Shown here in pieces: positions 1,419 to 26,958 of a stretch of DNA of 64,000 bases. The stretch covers positions 224,001-288,000 of the forward strand of contig CM000434.1 of the NCBI GenBank assembly GCA_000165345.1, given 5' to 3'. The first letter of the stretch is position 1; each line of letters opens with the position of its first letter. Under the pieces are notes generated by a model. The model saw only the letters and a list, made by a program, of their open reading frames with translations. It searched no databases and was not told the origin of the DNA. A program made the translations under genes and the position numbers.

Positions 1419-4400
1419 ATGTCAGCTTTATTCTCGTTAAATTTTAGAAACCAAAACAAATCAAAGCAGGAAAAGGAGGAAAACTTGACTAAAGAGACAA
1501 AAATAGAAAAAATAGAAGTCATGGAATCAAATTTTCAAAAGAATACAGAAAATATGAAATTTACGATTAAAAATGAACAGGTAGAAGATCAACAAGCAGA
1601 TATTTCTATACAAATAAAGGAGTCAAATAATGATAATGAAAAAGATTGTGTGCTTTTACATTCTGATACTTTGAGTAAATACCAAAAACAAAATCTTGAA
1701 ACTTTTGACCCTATAAACTCAAAATGGTACACAGAATTTGACAAAAAGGGACGAATTTCCTGTGTAGGAAGTCATGGAAATATCCGTATTTTAGCTGGGG
1801 ATACTTTAGCTTTAAGATTATATAATGGTACAATTCAAGGTGAGAGCTTTGTTATTACCATAGAAGATTTCTTTGGAAATAGAAAGATTATTCCTCCAAA
1901 AGATACAGATTCTTTAGGAAATTTCTATTGGGACCTAAAAATAACTGAACCAGGCTCTGTTCAAATTTCTATTTCTGTTGTAAATTGCTTTCAAGAATCA
2001 AAAGAAATCATCCAAAAGCTTAATGATAATTTAATAACTAATACAATCATTGTAGAACCAAAACTATATATCAACAATAACTTTATCCCAAGCTCAGGAA
2101 TTTGTATGCAAACAATTCTTAGTCAATGTTTAGGTAATATTCAAAACTGGAAGAGACGCCTTGAAATTACTTCAAAGCTTAATTATAATATGGTTCACTT
2201 TACTCCTTTACAGATTTTTGGCCAATCTGGATCCTGTTATTCCCTAGCAAATCAAAATGAAATATCCTCTTTATTCTTTAATAATGAATTTGATAAAGAC
2301 CAAAGCCAAAATTTGACTAATAAAGATACAAAGTCTATTCAAAATGATACTGAGACTAAAAAAACTTATACACCTGAAGAAAAATATAATTTCCTTAAAC
2401 AAGTTATTAATGAGTTGGAAATAGACTATGGGATCTTATCTGCTTGTGATGTAGTTCTAAATCATACTGCAGATAATTCTCCTTGGTTAAAAGAGCATCC
2501 TGAATCCGGTTATAATTTGGATAACTCTCCTCATCTTACAGCAGCTGTTGAACTTGATCAAAAATTGCAAGAATTCTCAAGAAATATATATCACGGAAAA
2601 TATTTAAATTCATATGGGATTAACAAAAATATTAATAATATTCAAAATGTTGATTCAGTCATTTCAGCTTTAAAGAATGAGGTTATTAACCCTTTCAATA
2701 TTAAAGATTTCTTCACTCTAAATATTAATGAAATCATTCAAAATTCTAAAATGGGTAATTCTTCTCAATCTATATTAGATCCTAAACAAGAAAGAGAGTA
2801 CAATGATATGATTAAGAGAATCAATGAAAATGATACCTTTGAGAATAAAATCTATAATCTATCCCTCTTCTTTTCATGTTCAAGTAGATCCAAGAAAATC
2901 ACAATTCCATCATATATTCTTAAAAAGATGAATCTTTCAAATATTTCAGAAAATATATTGGAAAATGTTCAGAATAGACTCTTTGAGTTTTCTGAACAAA
3001 TTTCAAATAATATTTGTAACTCAATTAGAGGTCTGGTAGTTTGGGAAAGAGTTGAATGTAGCAAAGGGCCAATAGGACTGAATCACTGGGAATCATTAAC
3101 CCCAAGGTACTTTACCCCAATTGAAGATTCTCAAGGAAGGACTCACTATCTCGCAAATAACGGCTGGGTAATGGGATGGAATGCTAAAGAAGACTTTGCT
3201 GCTCCTGGATCTTTTGTTTATCTTAAAAGAGATTTGATTGTTTGGTCTGATTGTGTTAAGCTCAAATATGGAAACTGTGAATCAGAATCTACATTTCTAT
3301 GGAAATGGATGTCTGATTATTGTAAGAGTATTGCAAATATATTCCATGCAATTAGACTTGATAACTGCCACTCTACTCCTCTCCATGTTGCTAAACATAT
3401 GCTCAGAGTATGTAGGGAGACCAGACCAAATATATGGGTATATGCTGAACTTTTCACTGGTGACTACGAAGTAGATTTAGAATTTGAAAGAACTCTTGGA
3501 CTTAATGCTTTAATTAGAGAAGCTATGAGAGCTGAAACACCAGGATCTTTAGGGAATTACGTAAGCAACTATAGTACAGCTCCAATTGGAGGCTTATCCA
3601 CGGTTCCAAGTTTATTCCAAGCAGTTAATTCCGAGAATCTAAATAAAAAGAGTAACCAAGAAACTCTTATATCACTTCCTATACTGCAAGGAGCTAAACC
3701 TCTCAAGAGACTCTCATGTCCAGCAATCTTCTTTGATTGTACTCATGATAATGAAACTCCTTGCGAAATCCGTACTCCTATTGACACTTTACCAACAGCA
3801 GCTTTGGTTGCTTCAACTAATTGTGCTCTTGGCTCTACCAGAGGTTTTGATGAGATTGTACCTCATAATATTAGTGTAGTATCTGAAAGACGACTTTATC
3901 AAAACTATATTGTCAATGTTAATGGAGATGAAAAAAGTCAACCTAAAGGCAAAGAATCAATAGAATTAAGCTTAAGATCAAGATCTAATAGTTTTGGTCC
4001 ATTTCAGAAACTTGCTAGTAATTATCTCACAGAGCCTTCTACAATTAACTGGAACTTTGGAAAAATCAAAAGTAATAATTCCAATATCTCCACAGAAATT
4101 ACTGTTGAATGGAGACATCCTGCCAATACTGTTGAAATACGTGGAGATTGGGATGACTGGAAAGAAGGTATTCAACTTGAGAAACATCCAAACGGTAACT
4201 TTATCGCAAAACTCTTTATTAGGTTTGGAATGAAGCCAGAACAAACTCAAATTCATGATCAAGAAAGTAAGAGTCATAACTCATCCAAAATTATTTATCC
4301 AATTAACCATCGTCTACAATATGAATATAAGTACATTGTAGATGGGAATTGGATGCATGATCCAAATCTACCCTATACTTCAGATGATAAAGGAAATACC

Positions 4401-20162: not shown

Positions 20163-22363
20163 TTAAGAAACAGACTTCCAAATAAACGATCCATCTGGTC
20201 TGTCCTCCAAAGTAATTTTCAATTTGGAGAGTTGTACATCTCTTACTTGGTCACATTTAGAAAGTAGAGATATTGATGACTTATTCACTTCATCGATAAG
20301 GCTTCCTACATTACCAAAATCATTGTTTGAAATTGCCTTCTTTTCTTTTCTGCATAATCCCATAAGTTTCTTAGATTCCTCCTTGGCACAACTTCTAAAT
20401 CCTCCAATAATCTCCATGAATTCATTAGTGAGTTCTTCTACTTTGGAGTTATCATAAGCAGAATCGCAAGTGTCTTTGTAATTAAGCTTTTCATTATCTT
20501 CACCACATAAACCAAGTATCGATAAAATCTTGTAAACATATGTGGCACAACGTCTTAAGATATTTCCAACAATCTGATCATCTGATTTTAAGTTCATGTA
20601 ACTATTTGCAACAGTAACAAGAGACTGAAGTGCTTGAATAACTTCTGGAGTATTTATATTGTCTTTAAAGAATTCATCAATCTAAAAAGAAAAAAAAAAT
20701 TAAATTAATTTTAATGTTCGACAAAAAGTTCATTTAGAAGTAGGAAAAAAAAGTTACTGAGTTCTTCGTTACTCTTTACTCCAAACTTCCTATTCTCCAC
20801 TCTAATGTATATATCTCCCCAATAAATTAAATCATAAACTGTTCAAAAAAGAAAAAAAGAGATTGAACATTTTAGATTTAATGAGAATGTTCGTGACGGT
20901 ATTTTAAGATGTATTTCTACAATGAAAAAAAATACATTATAAATATACCAACATGAAAGAGTACACGTGTCAATGCATGCATGCATGCACAACATTTGTA
21001 CTCTAATTAGTATAGCAAGCTCTTAGTGCCTAAAAAAGCTATGAATAGAAAAGCTTCAAGGAGTGGAATCTTGCATATTACCAAATCAAGATGGGGGGAA
21101 AAAATACAATAAGAGTAGATTATATTGTAAACTTACCTTTTCACTGGAAGATTCAATTGCAAGCCTGAGTTTCTCTTCTTCGATATCATGTTTCTGTGAG
21201 TTTTTCAAGTAGGACGTCCTAAGGCGTGCTTTAACATTAGCAAAAAAGTTGACAAAGGTTTTGTCAACAGCAATAGCTTCTTGTAAAGAAGTTTCTGGTG
21301 AGTAATTCATAGGTGCATCCCATTTATGGAGAAGGAAAAGCATCCTAATGTGTCTGGGTGAGTTTTCCTTAAGGATTTCCTGAATAGTAGTAAAGTTTTT
21401 AAGACTTTTAGACATCTTGGATCCGTGAATATGAAGATGACCAGAATGAAGGAAGTAGTTAACCCACTGGGCTTGATCATAATGAGCCTCACTTTGAGCA
21501 AGCTCATTATCATGATGAGGGAATCTCAAGTCAATACCTCCACTGTGAATGTCAATTGGGAATCCAAGAGTATTTGAAGCCATGACAGAACATTCAATAT
21601 GCCATCCTGGTCTACCTTTTCCCCAAGGACTATCCCAACAAGGCTCCTCAGGCTTTGCTTTCTTCCAAAGAGCAAAATCCAAAGGACTCTTCTTATCCTT
21701 AAGATGTTCTCCAAGTTCACCTTCACCTTCTAATACTCTATTAACATCAGCAACACTCTTTGGCTCCATTCTTCCATATACATGCTTTTCATCAGCTCTG
21801 AATGATTCTACATCAAAGTAAACACTTCCTTCTGATTCATAAGCAAAACCTCTAGAAATAATTGTAGAGATAAAATCAATAATTTCAGGAATAAATTCAG
21901 ATACCCTTGTAACAACATCCGGCATCTTAACATTTAAAGCCTTCATATCATCAAAGAATTCAAGTTCAAATTCTCTAGCCAAATCTAAAAAGTTTTCTCT
22001 TTTTTGCTCATTAGATCTCTTAATGATTTTATCATCAATATCTGTAATGTTCATAACCAAATAAACATCATACCCAAAGTAATCCTCTAATACTCTCCTA
22101 ATTATGTCAAAAGTTACATAATTTCTAGCATGGCCTAAATGAGCTGAGTCATATACTGTAGGACCACATGCATACCAGTTCACTCTTCTACCATTCACTG
22201 GTATAAATTCTGTCCTCCCTCCTGTCATACTATTATTAAGCATTAATCCTGTCGAATAAGAACATCTCTTTGATGCAGAACTCGTATCACCTGATTCTGC
22301 ATTAGAAAAACATCTTGTTGGTGGGATCCAATCTGCCATTCCTTCTGCTGTATTTAAACCCAT
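20163..22363 (-). CDS. Cysteinyl-tRNA synthetase (class I). Two exons: join(complement(21137..22363),complement(20163..20681)), about 581 aa
   Basis: Exon 1 carries [21 protein letters not shown] (HIGH motif) and [14 protein letters not shown] (KMSKS). It ends ...AIESSSEK with donor AAG|GTAAGT (plus-strand acttac at 21131-21136). The acceptor (T)10CTTTTTAG|ATTGATGAATTC has its AG as plus-strand ct at 20682-20683. Both junctions are phase 0 and in frame with ORF 20163..20597. Exon 2 ([29 protein letters not shown]...) aligns with the human CARS region downstream of KMSKS ([26 protein letters not shown]). Confidence 0.8.
20975..20989. repeat. (GCAT)n tetranucleotide repeat, i.e. overlapping GCATGCA boxes, inside the CysRS intron
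   Basis: gcatgcatgcatgca, read directly. Confidence 0.9.
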
Positions 22364-22614
22364 CTCTAAATTCTCAACAATTATATAAGTATTATACTTG
22401 TTTCAAATTTACTCTTGGAAATTTATTTCGTATTAAAATGAATAAAATTATTATTACATTTTTGCCCTAGTTTACTTAGATAATTATTTCATTGAGTTTG
22501 CTTGACCTATTTTACCTTAATATTGTATTGACCTGCTTAATTTAAATATCTTTATATACACTACTAATAATTTGCTTATTAATTCTATTTATAACCTTTA
22601 ATACACAAATTGGC

Positions 22615-22640
22615 GTCTCACAATTTCCCGCCACTTGCAA
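22615..22640. promoter_or_regulatory. E2F-like TTTCCCGCCAC box in the bidirectional intergenic region between CysRS(-) and the kinase gene(+)
   Basis: acaatttcccgccacttgcaataat. It lies about 255 bp from the CysRS ATG and about 240 bp from the kinase ATG. Confidence 0.5.
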
Positions 22641-22864
22641 TAATAATATTTGCCTATGTAAATTCTGGAGAAAAATTTGTATTAAAAGGAAATGAGGGGA
22701 AATCACGAAATGTAACTTTGAACTGGTTTTACATACAGAGGAAAATTAAAGATTAAATTGGTAAAAATACTAATATATTAATCAAGTTCAAAGGATAGTA
22801 TAGGCGCATACTTTTAAAGTTTAGATGTGTTTATGTGTGTGTATCTGATTTATGAAAGAAATCA

Positions 22865-24231
22865 ATGGAAGTAAAGTCTTCGGGTATCTTTGAAGAAATT
22901 CTAATCAAATCGGAAATATCTTCCAAAAAAGTATCCAAAGTTTGTATTGCAGAAGGATTGACCAAATCTGGTGAGAAAATCAATTTAATTCTTCTCAAGA
23001 TGTATAGAAAAGATATGGTTGTTAACCATAATCATATTTGGAATGAAAGAAATGTTTTGGAATATATTAGAGATTGCCAAACAATGAAAGAAGATGAGAA
23101 ATTAGCTTTACCATTGATGTAAGTTTTTTTTTCTTTTTAACGAATGAAAAATAATCAAATCTATTCAAATACTTTTTATATCTTAAAAAACTAATTGTTT
23201 CTTTTTTTTTTTAATTATAAAAATCAAATCTATTTTCTAAAACCTTTTATTTTTATCTAATTAGATATGATTCATTGGTTTTAGAAGAAAAAGAAACTAA
23301 AATAACGTACATTTGTATTGCTTTAAATTATATTCGGGGTAAAACTCTAGACAAGTATATAAATAATACAAGTTTATCTGTCGATTTCTTGAGAAAAATC
23401 TTCATTCAGGTATGTTCAATTATTTATATTTGTAATAGTAATAGTTAAAAAAAATGGTGGGGGAAGAAGGCAGAGAGGGATGAGTGTATAATAAAAAAGA
23501 AGCAACTAATAAATATTCCACTAATAAATAATTAACTTTATGATTATATTAGGTAGCAAAAGTCATCGGTTCTTTACATAAAGAAGGAATAATACATAGA
23601 GATATTAAATGTAGCAATATCATTATCGAATCTGAAACAGAAAAAATTAAACTGATTGATATGAGCTTGTCATGTTTTGTCGACACTAAAAAACAAAGGT
23701 TGTCAGAATTTTGTGGATCATTTCATACTATGGCGCCAGAAATGATTTGCATGCAAAAACCAAATTACAGTATAGAATATGACTGGTGGTCATTTGGGGT
23801 ATTAATTTACGAAATGGTATTTGGGTAAGTTTTAACAAACAATTTTTTTCATTAAAGTTTCATTTTGAACGAATCAAACTTGAATACAAATTTAACTTGC
23901 AAAATAAATAAATTTTAGTATACCACCTTATGGATATCATCCAGAAGAAAATAAATACCTTCTTAAAAGAATTAATGAATCTCCTAAATCTCTTAGTTTT
24001 CCCGAGCCTGTAATTTTCATGGGTGATTTTATTCAAGGTAGAAAAAATCGGGAAGAAACAGAAGATTTAATCATGAAACTTTTAAATAAAGATGAATCTA
24101 TCAGATTAGGCTCAAACGGCGATTTTAAACAAGTAATAGAGCATCCTTGGTTTAAAAGCTACCATTTGATGAATTTTCATGAAGATAGTTATTTCCTTGA
24201 AAATATAGATCTAATCAATGATGAAATATGA
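22865..24231 (+). CDS. Protein kinase-like protein with degenerate catalytic motifs. Four exons: join(22865..23118,23265..23409,23553..23824,23919..24231), about 327 aa
   Basis: Exon 1 ends at donor AT|GTAAGT and exon 2 starts after acceptor TTAG| (phase 2, codon ATA). Exon 2 ends at donor CAG|GTATGT at 23410 and exon 3 starts after acceptor TATTAG| (phase 0). Exon 3 ends at donor GG|GTAAGT at 23825 and exon 4 starts after acceptor TTTTAG| (phase 2, codon GGT). The spliced protein carries HRDIKCSNIII (catalytic loop), IDMSLS in place of DFG, MAPEM (APE), and DWWSFGVLIYEMVFG-IPPYGY (subdomains IX-X), ending HPWF. No canonical GxGxxG loop is visible in exon 1. Confidence 0.6.
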
Positions 24232-25592
24232 CGTAGAAAACTAGTTCTTTCTCTTTTATTTTCATATAGCATTTTGCCAAAGAGTTTGATATCCAACCAA
24301 TATCTTTTCATAAAGAATTTTATACTTGATCCAAAAACGGTTTCTGAGATTCTAGCAGCTTTTCTAAAATATTTTTCTTGAATTTCTGGATCTTTTGATA
24401 TTAGTCCAATTATAATTAAAACGGGAATATTATGTTCATCTTTGATATGAATCATTCTATACATAATATCTAACCAATATTGAGCTTTATCAAGATTCTT
24501 ATAAGATATATAATCATATACCAAGAACCCAATTAACTTTGAAGCATCTAACCCAACAAGTTTTTGAGCCTTTGATAAGTTAACTTGTTCATTTGGTAGA
24601 AAACTTTCTACTAGAATATCTTCAATAACAGAGATTCTTTCTTCTAAAGATAAACCCTGAAGCATATATATATATTTTTTAGATATCAATGAGCATCTTT
24701 TATTAAGTTTTCTTGAGATTTTGTTAATTTCGAATATTCTGGATGTGCTTTCATCAGGTGAGAATCTTCCTTCTTTCTGACATAATTCGCATCTACAAAA
24801 GAAATTGAGCTCACTACTTCTCACCCAAAGTGGATCTTGAATGTATTCACTTTCTATATAACATATAGATAAGGTCTCTTTTCTTTTGATTGGTCTTAAA
24901 GCTCTAAATACAGCAACCGTTCCAATATAGAATCTAGCAACATTTGGACTACATGAATGATCTAAAAATGAAGATTTGAAGTATAAAGAATTGATTGAGA
25001 AAATTTCAGTCCAGTAAAATGGATTTTTCCAAAGTTCAGGCATGGTGCTAACTGACATTTGATTGTATTTTACAACTAAATATATTCTAAGTGCTTCATT
25101 GAATCTTATTTTATTTGCCAAATCTGGGTTAGCTTCATAGAAACGACTGATTTTTTTTATAGGTATTTTGTAGTTCTCAGATTCTTGTCTAATTTTTTTA
25201 ATATCAGCTTGTGTACGTGGGAAAAACAATTTCAAATTTCTCAATAATTTATTATCATTTTTACATTTTTTAATCAACTTTTTCCAAAGTACTAATGAAT
25301 AATCTTTGAAATGATTTCCAATTTTGGTTGTGATCCAACATAGTGGTTTTTCCGCTAATATAAGCTCTCCTTTTGAAATATTCTCAAATGCAACCCAAGT
25401 ATTAGATTCTTGACTACTATTCAAAGCAATTTTTGGAGAAATATAATTGTTGGCACGTTTCCTGGAAAGACGGTTTTCAAAATCATACAAAGATTTATTA
25501 ATTTTTTCTCTTTTATTGGATTTATATGTATCATCGAATAATATTTGTAATTCAGATGATAACCAATCATCATCATCTAAAACTTTATGCAT
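24189..25592 (-). CDS. SET-domain lysine methyltransferase (SET plus Cys-rich post-SET, with a TPR-like N-terminal half), 467 aa
   Basis: LDHSCSPNVARFYIGTVAVFRALRPIKRKETLSICYIESEY (NHSCxPN and ELxxxY SET signatures) is followed by a post-SET CRCELC. The ATG is confirmed. The 3' end overlaps the convergent kinase gene's last exon by about 43 nt. Confidence 0.7.
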   Translation of the reverse strand: MHKVLDDDDWLSSELQILFDDTYKSNKREKINKSLYDFENRLSRKRANNYISPKIALNSSQESNTWVAFENISKGELILAEKPLCWITTKIGNHFKDYSLVLWKKLIKKCKNDNKLLRNLKLFFPRTQADIKKIRQESENYKIPIKKISRFYEANPDLANKIRFNEALRIYLVVKYNQMSVSTMPELWKNPFYWTEIFSINSLYFKSSFLDHSCSPNVARFYIGTVAVFRALRPIKRKETLSICYIESEYIQDPLWVRSSELNFFCRCELCQKEGRFSPDESTSRIFEINKISRKLNKRCSLISKKYIYMLQGLSLEERISVIEDILVESFLPNEQVNLSKAQKLVGLDASKLIGFLVYDYISYKNLDKAQYWLDIMYRMIHIKDEHNIPVLIIIGLISKDPEIQEKYFRKAARISETVFGSSIKFFMKRYWLDIKLFGKMLYENKRERTSFLRHISSLIRSIFSRK

Positions 25593-26112: not shown

Positions 26113-26958
26113 ATGTCGGCAGTTGGTATGTCTAATGACTTGCTAAAGTTTTTTCAAGCAAGGCCACCATTGCCATATGTTCCATATCCGAATAGAAGAC
26201 CGCATAAGCCTTACCAAGGACTGGCTGACCTAATAAATGAGAATCCAGATTTATTTGATAAGGTTAATACGCCACCAGAACCATATATAAGTAAAAAAAT
26301 GCGTAGAGAAACGGAGAAATTGCAAAGGATTCAGAATTATATGAAAGATATGCGAAAAAAAATTGAATCATATAATCCAATGGAAGAGAATGTAGATAAT
26401 AAGACTTTTGATCCATACAATACATTGTTTATCGCAAGGTTAAATTATGATACTACAGAGAGAACTTTAAAGAGAGAGTTAGAAGTTTATGGCAAAATAT
26501 TAAATTTACGAATTGTTAAAGATTTCCAAGGCGAATCAAGAGGATATGCATTTGTGGAATTTGATAATGAAGATTCTCTGAAAGAAGCATATAAGTCATT
26601 TAACAAGAAGAGTATTGATGGATGGAAGGTATTAGTTGATGTTGAGAGAGGTAGAACAGTTGAGAACTGGTTACCAAAAAGACTTGGTGGTGGATTGGGG
26701 AAAGTAAGAGGACAAGAAAAGCCAGAATCGAAAAGCTTCTTTGGTGGTAACAATAGTATTTATAATCATGGCTCAAAGCAAGGTAATAGTAATTATGGAA
26801 ATTCTGGGTTTGGGCAAACATATAGACAAAGAGAACATAGAAGCTTTAGAAGTTATGGCTATAAGGGTCAAAATGACAGAAATAGCAGTGGAGGGGATTA
26901 TAATTCTTCTAGGAATTATGGAAACTTTGGAAATAAGAAGTTTAAATACTCAAGGTAA
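26113..26958 (+). CDS. SNRNP70: U1 small nuclear ribonucleoprotein 70 kDa (U1-70K), 281 aa
   Basis: The N-terminal U1-70K-specific region ([10 protein letters not shown]...NPDLFD) precedes an RRM matching human SNRNP70 ([55 protein letters not shown]...[29 protein letters not shown]; human [32 protein letters not shown]...[57 protein letters not shown]). An RG/S-rich tail follows. Confidence 0.85.
   Translation: [281 protein letters not shown]

What the first reader, a model, noticed from the sequence alone, without database searches (positions are those of the whole stretch)
22865..24231. Four-exon kinase-fold gene with degenerate catalytic motifs (likely pseudokinase) in an intron-poor genome
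Three canonical GT-AG introns, all phase-consistent, assemble a protein that retains HRDIKCSN, APE and subdomains IX-X. In the part I can see, however, DFG is replaced by DMS and there is no GxGxxG loop and no clear VAIK lysine context. Loss of the DFG Gly together with loss of the glycine loop usually marks a pseudokinase or a non-canonical ATP binder. Three introns is unusually many for this genome. The 3' end also overlaps the convergent SET-domain gene by about 43 nt.
Basis: partly seen in the sequence, partly recalled or inferred. Interest (0 to 1): 0.5.

Follow-up and report, generated by a model that had tools for sequence, protein, structure and literature searches.

The report
Cryptosporidium kinase lacking the glycine loop
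This is a real, already annotated four-exon Cryptosporidium parvum gene (locus tag 6g970) for a small protein kinase that keeps every residue that does the chemistry but has lost the glycines of its ATP-clamping loop, so it is probably an unusual working kinase, not a dead one.

Summary
The gene model is correct. Exons 22865-23118, 23265-23409, 23553-23824 and 23919-24231, joined across three GT-AG introns, give a 327-aa protein. It is identical to GenBank WRK32693.1, "Serine/threonine-protein kinase [Cryptosporidium parvum]"; related records carry locus tags CPCDC_6g970 and CHM_6g970. Intron positions and phases (2/0/2) are the same in five other Cryptosporidium species, and dN/dS is 0.16-0.22.

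The motif observations are partly right. No orthologue has a GxGxxG; the loop reads I-S-S-K-K-V-S-K-V. DFG is DMS throughout, except DMG in C. ryanae. The claim of no clear VAIK lysine is wrong. K45, the helix-C Glu E61, HRDIKCSN, the metal-binding D169, APE, DWWS and RLG are all present and almost all invariant. The AlphaFold model has a complete N-lobe, so no 5' exon is missing.

By the usual sequence definition (loss of the beta-3 Lys, HRD Asp or DFG Asp) this is not a pseudokinase. It is a Cryptosporidium-restricted, AGC-related, kinase-domain-only protein. Glu sits at the activation-loop phosphosite, and the Ser/Lys-rich loop is conserved above background. I favour a catalytically competent atypical kinase (about 0.55) over a pseudokinase (about 0.35).

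The 43-nt overlap with the SET gene is real. It is a recent 1-nt indel effect confined to the parvum clade. Interest is modest.

The parts
22865..23118 (+). Exon 1 (codons 1-84 plus 2 nt). It encodes the N-lobe strands beta1 to beta3 and helix C.
   Evidence: The ATG is the first in frame after a stop. The GTAAGT donor is at 23119. Exon length (254 nt; 251 in C. serpentis) and phase 2 are conserved in 5 other species. pLDDT is above 90.
22916..22942 (+). Codons 18-26, I-S-S-K-K-V-S-K-V. This is the glycine-free equivalent of the GxGxxGxV nucleotide loop (G50->S19, G52->K21, G55->S24, V57=V26).
   Evidence: The AF2 strands are 9-20 and 24-33 with the turn at 21-23. Loop conservation is 0.85 against 0.69 for the N-lobe.
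22997..22999 (+). Codon K45 (AAG), the beta-3 'VAIK' lysine in LILLKMY.
   Evidence: It aligns to the AMK lysine of MSK1 in the profile-vs-PDB search and to PKA K72. It is invariant in 8 of 8 species.
23045..23047 (+). Codon E61 (GAA), the helix-C glutamate that pairs with K45.
   Evidence: invariant.
23119..23264 (+). Intron 1 (146 nt, GTAAGT...TTAG, GC 14%, phase 2).
   Evidence: An intron at the same position is present in C. meleagridis, C. felis, C. ubiquitum, C. xiaoi and C. serpentis, with lengths of 54-138 nt.
23265..23409 (+). Exon 2 (145 nt), covering beta4, beta5, the hinge and helix D.
   Evidence: The Pfam Pkinase match starts at residue 98.
23410..23552 (+). Intron 2 (143 nt, GTATGT...TTAG, phase 0).
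   Evidence: Position and phase are conserved.
23553..23824 (+). Exon 3 (272 nt). It holds the catalytic loop HRDIKCSN (23595-23618), DMS (23658-23666), the activation loop with E185 (23706-23708), APE (23733-23741) and DWWSFG.
23825..23918 (+). Intron 3 (94 nt, GTAAGT...TTAG, phase 2).
   Evidence: The position is conserved. C. serpentis has a GC donor (GCAAGT) at the same site.
23919..24231 (+). Exon 4, covering helices G to I, RLG, HPWF, a 21-residue tail (307-327) inside the modelled-disordered C-terminus (306-327), and the stop codon TGA at 24229-24231.
   Evidence: residues 306-327 have pLDDT below 50. The tail exists only in the parvum/hominis/tyzzeri clade.
24189..24231 (.). The 43-nt stretch where the kinase CDS and the convergent SET-domain CDS (24189-25592, minus strand) overlap.
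   Evidence: There is no overlap in C. ubiquitum, C. xiaoi, C. serpentis, C. meleagridis or C. felis. The cause is a 1-nt difference, CCATTTGATG in parvum against CCATTGATG in meleagridis.
22364..22864 (.). The 501-bp intergenic region shared with the divergent cysteinyl-tRNA synthetase gene. It holds no extra kinase exon.
   Evidence: The only + strand ORF here (22610-22756) has no kinase motif. M1 is conserved in all orthologues. The N-lobe is complete.

Best explanation
The locus is the Cryptosporidium parvum chromosome-6 gene with locus tag 6g970. It is a four-exon gene for a 327-aa cytosolic protein that consists of a kinase domain and nothing else. The protein belongs to the eukaryotic protein kinase superfamily. 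It is closest to AGC kinases (MSK, S6K, SGK, PDK1, PKC) but has no AGC C-terminal tail, and it has recognisable orthologues only within the genus Cryptosporidium.

Shown: the fold is a complete bilobal kinase. Lys45-Glu61, His-Arg-Asp150, Lys152, Asn155, Asp169, APE, Asp210 and Arg286 are all retained and almost all invariant. Three ATP-site features are derived and fixed in the genus:
- The GxGxxG glycines are replaced by a conserved Ser/Lys-rich hairpin ([ST]-x-K-x-[ST]-K-V).
- DFG is DMS.
- The VAIK Ala is Leu or Val in most species.

The activation-loop residue that AGC kinases need phosphorylated is a Glu (E185).

Inferred: the protein still binds ATP-Mg and transfers phosphate to Ser/Thr. 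The hydroxyl and basic side chains of the hairpin would take over phosphate clamping from the glycine backbone amides, as the basic residues of Toxoplasma WNG1 do. Met170 would fill the regulatory-spine position of the DFG Phe. E185 would make the activation loop constitutively 'on' without an upstream PDK1-type kinase. Turnover is probably slower than in canonical AGC kinases.
For: Gene model:
- Clean GT-AG splicing gives an open 984-nt CDS.
- The product is identical to WRK32693.1.
- Exon lengths of 254/145/272-275 nt (251/142/269 in C. serpentis) and phases 2/0/2 are conserved in five other species, while intron lengths vary from 54 to 155 nt.
- dN/dS is 0.22 against C. meleagridis and 0.16 against C. 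ubiquitum.
- Synteny CysRS / kinase / SET / U1-70K is conserved.

Fold and family:
- Pfam Pkinase E=2.2e-39.
- The best solved structures by sequence are PKC-theta, MSK1 and S6K1.
- The AF2 model has pLDDT 88 and pTM 0.87, with beta1-beta5 and helix C.
- Foldseek aligns about 300 columns to PDK1, PKG, PKC and PKA at TM about 0.7.

Catalytic residues:
- K45 and E61 align to the MSK1 AMK Lys and helix-C Glu.
- K45, E61, H148, R149, D150, K152, N155, D169, P195, E196, D210 and R286 are identical in 8 of 8 species, although C. parvum and C. andersoni are only 45% identical overall.

The loop is constrained, not decaying:
- Residues 18-26 score 0.85 in conservation against 0.69 for the N-lobe.
- The deepest lineage shows S->T exchanges and keeps the lysines.

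E185 aligns with the engineered T538E of PKC-theta (4q9z) and with PKA T197.

Precedent:
- WNG1 is active with no Gly loop, uses basic residues as a cap, has DFE and a non-Ala VAIK position (PMC6442604).
- Eight of 65 typical P. falciparum kinases lack all three glycines. That paper states that ATP binding and phosphotransfer do not depend on the triad (PMC526369).
Against: - No biochemical, expression or phenotype data were found. The locus tag appears in no searchable paper, and the 2011 C. parvum kinome paper does not list it.
- The second loop glycine (PKA G52) is the best conserved of the three, and here it is Lys.
- A bulky residue at the VAIK Ala position has been proposed as diagnostic of failed ATP binding in some pseudokinases, such as STK40 and VRK3 (PMC7586955). 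C. parvum has Leu there.
- Replacing the DFG Gly with Ser should stiffen the DFG hinge.
- Conservation of the K/E/D/N/D set also occurs in nucleotide-binding pseudokinases, so it does not prove turnover.
- I could not inspect model coordinates, so pocket geometry and the K45-E61 distance were not measured.
Confidence: 0.55

Rival explanations
1. It is a true pseudokinase. The fold and the conserved 'catalytic' residues are kept for nucleotide-dependent or nucleotide-independent scaffolding or allosteric regulation. The protein does not phosphorylate substrates at a meaningful rate.
For: - All three loop glycines are lost, including the critical second one (->Lys). DFG is DMS. The VAIK Ala is Leu.
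- Degraded Gly loops combined with a bulky beta-3 residue accompany loss of ATP binding in STK40 and the TRIB family (PMC7586955).
- A Glu at the activation-loop phosphosite could lock an 'active-like' conformation, as expected for a scaffold.
- The protein is a lone domain with no regulatory modules.
Against: - It does not meet the sequence definition. The beta-3 Lys, HRD Asp and DFG Asp are all present and invariant.
- The substrate-side and gamma-phosphate residues that scaffolds usually let drift (K152, N155, the P+1 loop GSFHTMAPE) are also kept across a genus whose orthologues are as little as 45% identical.
- The replaced loop is conserved above background with chemically conservative S/T and K retention. 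This looks like a working phosphate-binding element.
- Gly-free active kinases exist in Apicomplexa.
Confidence: 0.35
2. The gene model is incomplete or wrong. An unseen upstream exon supplies a canonical GxGxxG/VAIK N-lobe, or exon 1 belongs to another transcript.
For: - The Pfam Pkinase match covers only residues 98-302, so the N-lobe is not matched.
- Many public models of this gene are truncated or mis-spliced.
Against: - Exon 1 already encodes beta1 to beta3 and helix C with pLDDT above 90.
- About 300 columns superpose on whole AGC kinase domains.
- The profile search aligns residues 41-304 to MSK1, including the Lys and the Glu.
- The Met1 start and exon 1 are conserved in all species with the same donor phase.
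- The upstream 501 bp is a divergent promoter region with no kinase-like ORF.
Confidence: 0.02
3. It is a decaying pseudogene. The motif changes would then be neutral degeneration.
For: - Non-canonical motifs.
- A clade-specific frameshifted C-terminal tail.
Against: - The ORF is intact and the splice sites are conserved in at least 10 Cryptosporidium species.
- dN/dS is 0.16-0.22.
- The catalytic loop is 97% conserved.
- The 'degenerate' motifs are themselves fixed rather than variable.
Confidence: 0.01

Closest known systems
AGC-group protein kinases (MSK1/RPS6KA5, S6K1, SGK1, PDK1, PKC-theta)
   Same: - They are the best sequence and structure matches.
- Helix C reads NERxVLEyIR as in MSK1.
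- The activation loop contains xFCGS/T...APE, followed by DWWS, RLG and HPWF.
- As in PDK1, no hydrophobic-motif tail is attached.
   Different: - There is no Pkinase_C / AGC tail. Residues 306-327 are disordered and confined to one clade.
- There are no glycines in the nucleotide loop.
- DFG is DMS, and the VAIK Ala is Leu or Val.
- The T-loop phospho-Thr is replaced by Glu.
- There is a 12-residue insert between helix C and beta4.
[quoted passage not shown] WNG1/ROP35 (PMC6442604)
   Same: - It is an apicomplexan kinase with no Gly loop that keeps the VAIK Lys, HRD and the DFG Asp.
- Basic residues sit where the loop would be.
- The DFG Gly is substituted (E in WNG1, S here).
- The VAIK Ala position is non-Ala.
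- WNG1 is catalytically active.
   Different: - WNG kinases have lost beta1 and the hairpin itself, replaced by a helical lid. They are secreted dense-granule proteins restricted to coccidia.
- Here the beta1-turn-beta2 hairpin is predicted intact.
- There is no N-terminal extension or signal sequence.
- The closest sequence relatives are AGC kinases.
FIKK kinases and the 8 'typical' P. falciparum kinases lacking all three glycines (PMC526369)
   Same: The glycine triad is missing or incomplete, while every other phosphotransfer residue is conserved.
   Different: - There is no FIKK motif (LLKMY here).
- There is no long N-terminal extension with the conserved Trp.
- There is no export signal.
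- The gene is single-copy and confined to the genus.
Pseudokinases with degraded Gly loops (TRIB1-3, STK40; PMC7586955)
   Same: The Gly-rich loop is degraded and the residue at the beta-3 Ala position is non-Ala.
   Different: TRIB and STK40 also lack the DFG Asp and/or have altered HRD/Asn motifs. Here all of these are canonical.
C. parvum PKA-like kinase cgd2_1830 (Artz et al. 2011, PMC3227725)
   Same: It is another C. parvum AGC-type kinase in which no GxGxxG can be identified.
   Different: cgd2_1830 is described as N-terminally shortened. The present protein has the full hairpin. Any relationship between the two was not tested.

Membership tests
Eukaryotic protein kinase superfamily (Pfam PF00069 Pkinase) | Profile match above the curated cut-off | tested here: met
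   135.9 bits against a cut-off of 31.7, E=2.2e-39. Residues 98-302 match profile positions 70-263.
Eukaryotic protein kinase superfamily (Pfam PF00069 Pkinase) | Bilobal fold with a five-stranded N-lobe sheet plus helix C | tested here: met
   The AF2 model has pLDDT 88 and pTM 0.87, with strands 9-20, 24-33, 39-48, 85-92 and 99-106 and a helix at 56-70. About 300 columns align to PDK1, PKG, PKC and PKA.
Eukaryotic protein kinase superfamily (Pfam PF00069 Pkinase) | Beta-3 Lys, helix-C Glu, HRD Asp, catalytic-loop Asn and DFG Asp | tested here: met
   K45, E61, D150, N155 and D169 are invariant in 8 species.
Eukaryotic protein kinase superfamily (Pfam PF00069 Pkinase) | GxGxxG glycine-rich loop | tested here: not met
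   The loop is I-S-S-K-K-V-S-K-V, with no Gly in any orthologue. This is common but not obligatory in the superfamily.
AGC kinase group | Closest similarity of the catalytic core to AGC members | tested here: met
   The top PDB sequence and fold hits are all AGC kinases.
AGC kinase group | C-terminal AGC tail (Pkinase_C PF00433; turn motif and hydrophobic motif FxxF[ST][YF]) | tested here: not met
   There is no PF00433 hit. The 22 residues after HPWFK are disordered and absent outside the parvum clade. Orthologues end 1-7 residues after the HPWF motif.
AGC kinase group | Phosphorylatable Thr/Ser in the activation loop before FCGT | tested here: not met
   The position is occupied by E185, or Gln in the gastric species.
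Pseudokinase (sequence definition: lacks at least one of the beta-3 Lys, HRD Asp or DFG Asp) | Absence of at least one of the three residues | tested here: not met
   All three are present and invariant. The criterion itself is taken from my own knowledge and is consistent with the reviews retrieved.
Pseudokinase (functional definition: no phosphotransfer) | Lack of catalytic activity | not testable with these tools
   This needs a biochemical assay. Sequence evidence points both ways.
WNG kinases | Beta1 and the Gly-loop hairpin replaced by an N-terminal helical lid; secreted; found in coccidia | tested here: not met
   The hairpin is predicted intact. The protein starts 8 residues before beta1, with no leader sequence. 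Family features are taken from PMC6442604.
FIKK kinases | [quoted passage not shown] | tested here: not met
   Subdomain II reads LILLKMY, and there is no N-terminal extension.

The most novel reading that the evidence does not exclude
The genus Cryptosporidium has fixed an AGC-derived kinase that stays catalytically active. In it the glycine-rich loop has been rebuilt, inside an otherwise canonical beta1-beta2 hairpin, as a Ser/Thr-Lys 'Walker-A-like' phosphate clamp. DMS replaces DFG, and a built-in Glu replaces activation-loop phosphorylation. This would be a third, structurally distinct apicomplexan solution to working without a Gly loop, after WNG and FIKK. It would also give a parasite-specific ATP pocket that differs from every host kinase.
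Probability: 0.4. Interest if true: 0.5.

Novelty: new member of a known kind. Interest (0 to 1): 0.3.

Why it matters
Cryptosporidium has few drug targets, and its kinases are being explored as targets. A single-copy kinase restricted to the genus and conserved within it would be a selective target if it is active and needed. Its ATP site differs from host kinases in three ways: no glycine loop, Leu at the VAIK Ala position, and DMS for DFG. For kinase enzymology it is one more natural test of how much of the Gly loop and the DFG motif is dispensable.

The practical yield is also useful. The gene was absent from the 2011 C. parvum kinome. It is mis-modelled in many public annotations, with products of 175, 223, 224, 257, 270, 282 and 293 aa. 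The conserved four-exon structure given here can be used to correct them.

Tried and rejected
- **Missing 5' exon with a glycine loop.** Rejected. The N-lobe is complete and confidently modelled, exon 1 and Met1 are conserved, and the 501-bp upstream region has no kinase-like ORF.
- **DMS as a misread of DFG.** Rejected. It is present in independent assemblies of at least 10 species and in two extra fragment clusters found by the exhaustive search.
- **Pseudogene.** Rejected on dN/dS and intact ORFs.
- **Orthologues outside Cryptosporidium.** An exhaustive profile search of 1.84 billion representatives scored the full-length Cryptosporidium representatives at 400-461 bits, plus two short fragments carrying the same DMSLACF motif (155 and 207 bits). 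The 160-240-bit hits are multi-domain sums. The best single-domain outsiders score about 130 bits, and the three inspected have canonical GxGxxG and DFG.
- **Literature on the gene.** There were no hits for the locus tag, and it is not in the text or supplements of the 2011 kinome paper.
- **WNG or FIKK membership.** Considered and rejected on fold and motifs.
- **A hydrophobic motif in the C-terminal tail (FHEDSYF).** It does not fit FxxF[ST][YF], and the tail is a clade-specific frameshift product.
- **Pocket geometry.** I could not obtain model coordinates, so the ATP pocket was not measured.

Full report
**What the window is.** The window is AT-rich (GC 25-37%). The protein assembled from the reported region is 100% identical to GenBank WRK32693.1, "Serine/threonine-protein kinase [Cryptosporidium parvum]". 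It clusters with C. hominis, C. tyzzeri and C. meleagridis proteins, some of which carry locus tags CPCDC_6g970, CPHLJ_6g970 and CHM_6g970. The window is therefore C. parvum chromosome 6, and the finding is gene 6g970, written cgd6_970 in the older locus-tag style.

**Checking the gene model.**
- The exons are 22865-23118, 23265-23409, 23553-23824 and 23919-24231. The introns are GTAAGT...AG, GTATGT...AG and GTAAGT...AG, of 146, 143 and 94 nt with GC 14-24%. Joining the exons gives a 984-nt open frame of 327 codons plus a stop.
- These intron sizes and compositions fit the published C. parvum averages of 99 nt mean length and 22% GC (PMC4637869).
- I fetched the orthologous loci of C. ubiquitum, C. 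xiaoi, C. serpentis, C. meleagridis and C. felis. The gene order is the same in all five: cysteinyl-tRNA synthetase (-), kinase (+), SET-domain gene (-), U1-70K (+).
- Homology-guided splice models give the same structure in four of these species. Exon lengths are 254/145/272-275 nt and phases are 2/0/2, while intron lengths range from 54 to 155 nt.
- The gastric species C. serpentis fits the same structure (251/142/269 nt) once a GC-AG intron 3 is allowed.
- dN/dS is 0.22 against C. meleagridis and 0.16 against C. ubiquitum.
- The four-exon model is therefore real, old and under purifying selection.
- About 10.8% of C. parvum genes have introns, and those that do average 2.6 exons. Three introns is above average but not extraordinary.

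**Checking the fold and the 'missing' N-lobe.**
- Pfam Pkinase matches at E=2.2e-39, but only over residues 98-302, which correspond to profile positions 70-263.
- A profile of the orthologues searched against PDB sequences aligns residues 41-304 to MSK1. K45 in LILLKMY pairs with the AMK lysine, and E61 in NERNVLEYIR pairs with the helix-C Glu in TERQVLEHIR.
- AlphaFold2, run on a 21-sequence alignment, gives pLDDT 88 and pTM 0.87. The N-lobe is complete and confident: beta1 9-20, beta2 24-33, beta3 39-48, helix C 56-70, beta4 85-92 and beta5 99-106. Only residues 306-327 are disordered.
- Foldseek aligns about 300 columns to PDK1, PKG, PKC and PKA at TM about 0.7.
- No exon is missing. The upstream 501 bp is a divergent intergenic region with no kinase-like ORF.

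**Motif inventory.** The nucleotide loop maps as follows.

| PKA | L49 | G50 | T51 | G52 | S53 | F54 | G55 | R56 | V57 |
|---|---|---|---|---|---|---|---|---|---|
| This protein | I18 | S19 | S20 | K21 | K22 | V23 | S24 | K25 | V26 |

- All three glycines are replaced, and no orthologue has a Gly there.
- The replacement is not drifting. Residues 18-26 score 0.85 in conservation against 0.69 for the whole N-lobe. The deepest lineage (C. andersoni, 45% identical overall) reads I-Y-T-H-K-K-T-K-V, which keeps the hydroxyl and lysine positions.
- DFG is D169-M170-S171 in all 8 species compared; C. ryanae has DMG.
- The VAIK Ala position is Leu in the parvum clade and C. ubiquitum, Val in C. felis, C. 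xiaoi and C. bovis, and Ala in C. andersoni.
- Everything else is canonical. K45, E61, L65, H148, R149, D150, K152, N155, D169, P195, E196, D210 and R286 are invariant, and A194 is Pro only in C. andersoni.
- The AGC activation-loop phosphosite is E185. It corresponds to PKA T197 and to the engineered T538E of PKC-theta in 4q9z.

**Family placement.**
- The closest solved relatives are AGC kinases.
- There is no Pkinase_C tail.
- An exhaustive profile search of 1.84 billion representatives scored the full-length Cryptosporidium representatives at 400-461 bits. Two short fragment clusters carrying the same DMSLACF motif scored 155 and 207 bits.
- The next entries at 160-240 bits are multi-domain proteins whose scores are summed over several kinase domains. 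The best single-domain outsiders score about 130 bits, and the three I inspected have canonical GxGxxG, A-x-K and DFG.
- The family is therefore restricted to the genus as far as HMMER can see, and its ATP-site changes are derived.

**Interpretation.**
- By the usual sequence criterion (loss of the beta-3 Lys, HRD Asp or DFG Asp) this is not a pseudokinase.
- Lack of the glycine triad is not unusual in Apicomplexa. Eight of 65 typical P. falciparum kinases lack all three glycines, and that paper notes that ATP binding and phosphotransfer do not depend on the triad (PMC526369).
- Toxoplasma WNG1 is active with no Gly loop at all. It uses basic residues as a Walker-A-like cap and has DFE and a non-Ala VAIK position (PMC6442604).
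- The parallels here are conserved lysines and hydroxyls in the loop, a substituted DFG Gly, and a non-Ala VAIK position. Together with strict retention of the catalytic and substrate-side residues, they lead me to favour a working but atypical kinase with a constitutively 'phosphomimetic' activation loop.
- The counter-arguments are real. The second loop glycine is the most important of the three, and here it is Lys. A bulky residue at the VAIK Ala position has been linked to loss of ATP binding in STK40 and VRK3 (PMC7586955). No experimental data exist for this gene.
- I put the active-kinase reading at about 0.55 and the pseudokinase reading at about 0.35.

**The overlap.**
- The convergent ORF at 24189-25592 is 467 aa with a SET domain. 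Its annotated orthologues are 467 aa in three of the five species, 469 aa in C. serpentis and 463 aa in C. felis.
- It overlaps the kinase CDS by exactly 43 nt in C. parvum.
- In the five other species the two CDSs do not overlap.
- C. meleagridis reads AGC TGC CAT TGA. C. parvum has one more T (AGC TAC CAT TTG ATG ...). This removes the stop and adds 21 codons that run into the SET 3' end.
- The tail is modelled as disordered and is shared only with C. hominis and C. tyzzeri. It is a recent by-product rather than a functional AGC tail.

**Verdict.** The 'likely pseudokinase' reading is only partly supported. The gene is already annotated as a Ser/Thr kinase but is uncharacterised and often mis-modelled. 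It is a new, genus-specific member of the known class of atypical kinases that lack a glycine loop, and it is of modest interest.

Noticed in passing
window 22624-22631 (shared CysRS/kinase intergenic region): There is a perfect E2F-type site, TTTCCCGC, here. It is one of only 7 TTTSSCGC matches on either strand in the 64-kb window. The same octamer sits in the corresponding upstream region of C. meleagridis (L004:2761), C. ubiquitum (L001:2768) and C. felis (L005:2852), but not of C. xiaoi or C. serpentis. It may be a shared promoter element for the divergent gene pair.
   Followed up: partly
window 21086-22363 (-): The cysteinyl-tRNA synthetase ORF is only 425 aa (Pfam tRNA-synt_1e, E=1.3e-120). 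The annotated orthologues are 577-592 aa and span about 2.0-2.3 kb. The C. parvum gene therefore probably continues below 21086 across at least one intron. The neighbour of the kinase would then also be an intron-containing gene.
   Followed up: no
window 24160-24170 versus L004 (about 4280-4290): A 1-nt length difference in a T run (CCATTTGATG in C. parvum, CCATTGATG in C. meleagridis) decides whether the kinase stops at ...KSCH or runs 21 codons further into the SET gene. C. tyzzeri and C. hominis share the long form.
   Followed up: yes
L003:3797-3860 (C. serpentis orthologue, intron 3): At the conserved intron-3 position the donor is GCAAGT, a GC-AG intron. Using it restores a 304-aa protein collinear with C. 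andersoni (285 of 304 identical). The deposited C. serpentis model (298 aa) uses other splice sites and loses part of helix F; the deposited C. muris model (293 aa) lacks the residues just after that junction (VPPFGYHPEQNE in C. andersoni).
   Followed up: partly
public protein records for this gene (P0003, P0007-P0009, P0023-P0031): Deposited models disagree widely. C. parvum Iowa II has a 175-aa partial. C. parvum has 224, 304 and 327 aa versions, and C. hominis has 223, 270 and 282 aa versions. C. felis is 257 aa and lacks most of the N-lobe. C. canis is 224 or 249 aa, and chipmunk genotype I is 293 aa and lacks the APE region. Only the 327-aa C. parvum and C. tyzzeri models match the conserved four-exon structure.
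   Followed up: partly
C. hominis orthologues P0023, P0025 and P0030, residues about 41-45: C. hominis has a one-residue deletion in strand beta3 (TNLI-LKMY against C. parvum INLILLKMY), right next to the catalytic lysine. It appears in three independent C. hominis records.
   Followed up: no
window 26113-26958 (+): A 281-aa ORF carries U1snRNP70_N and RRM_1 domains, making it the U1-70K spliceosomal protein. Its position downstream of the SET gene is conserved in all five other species.
   Followed up: no
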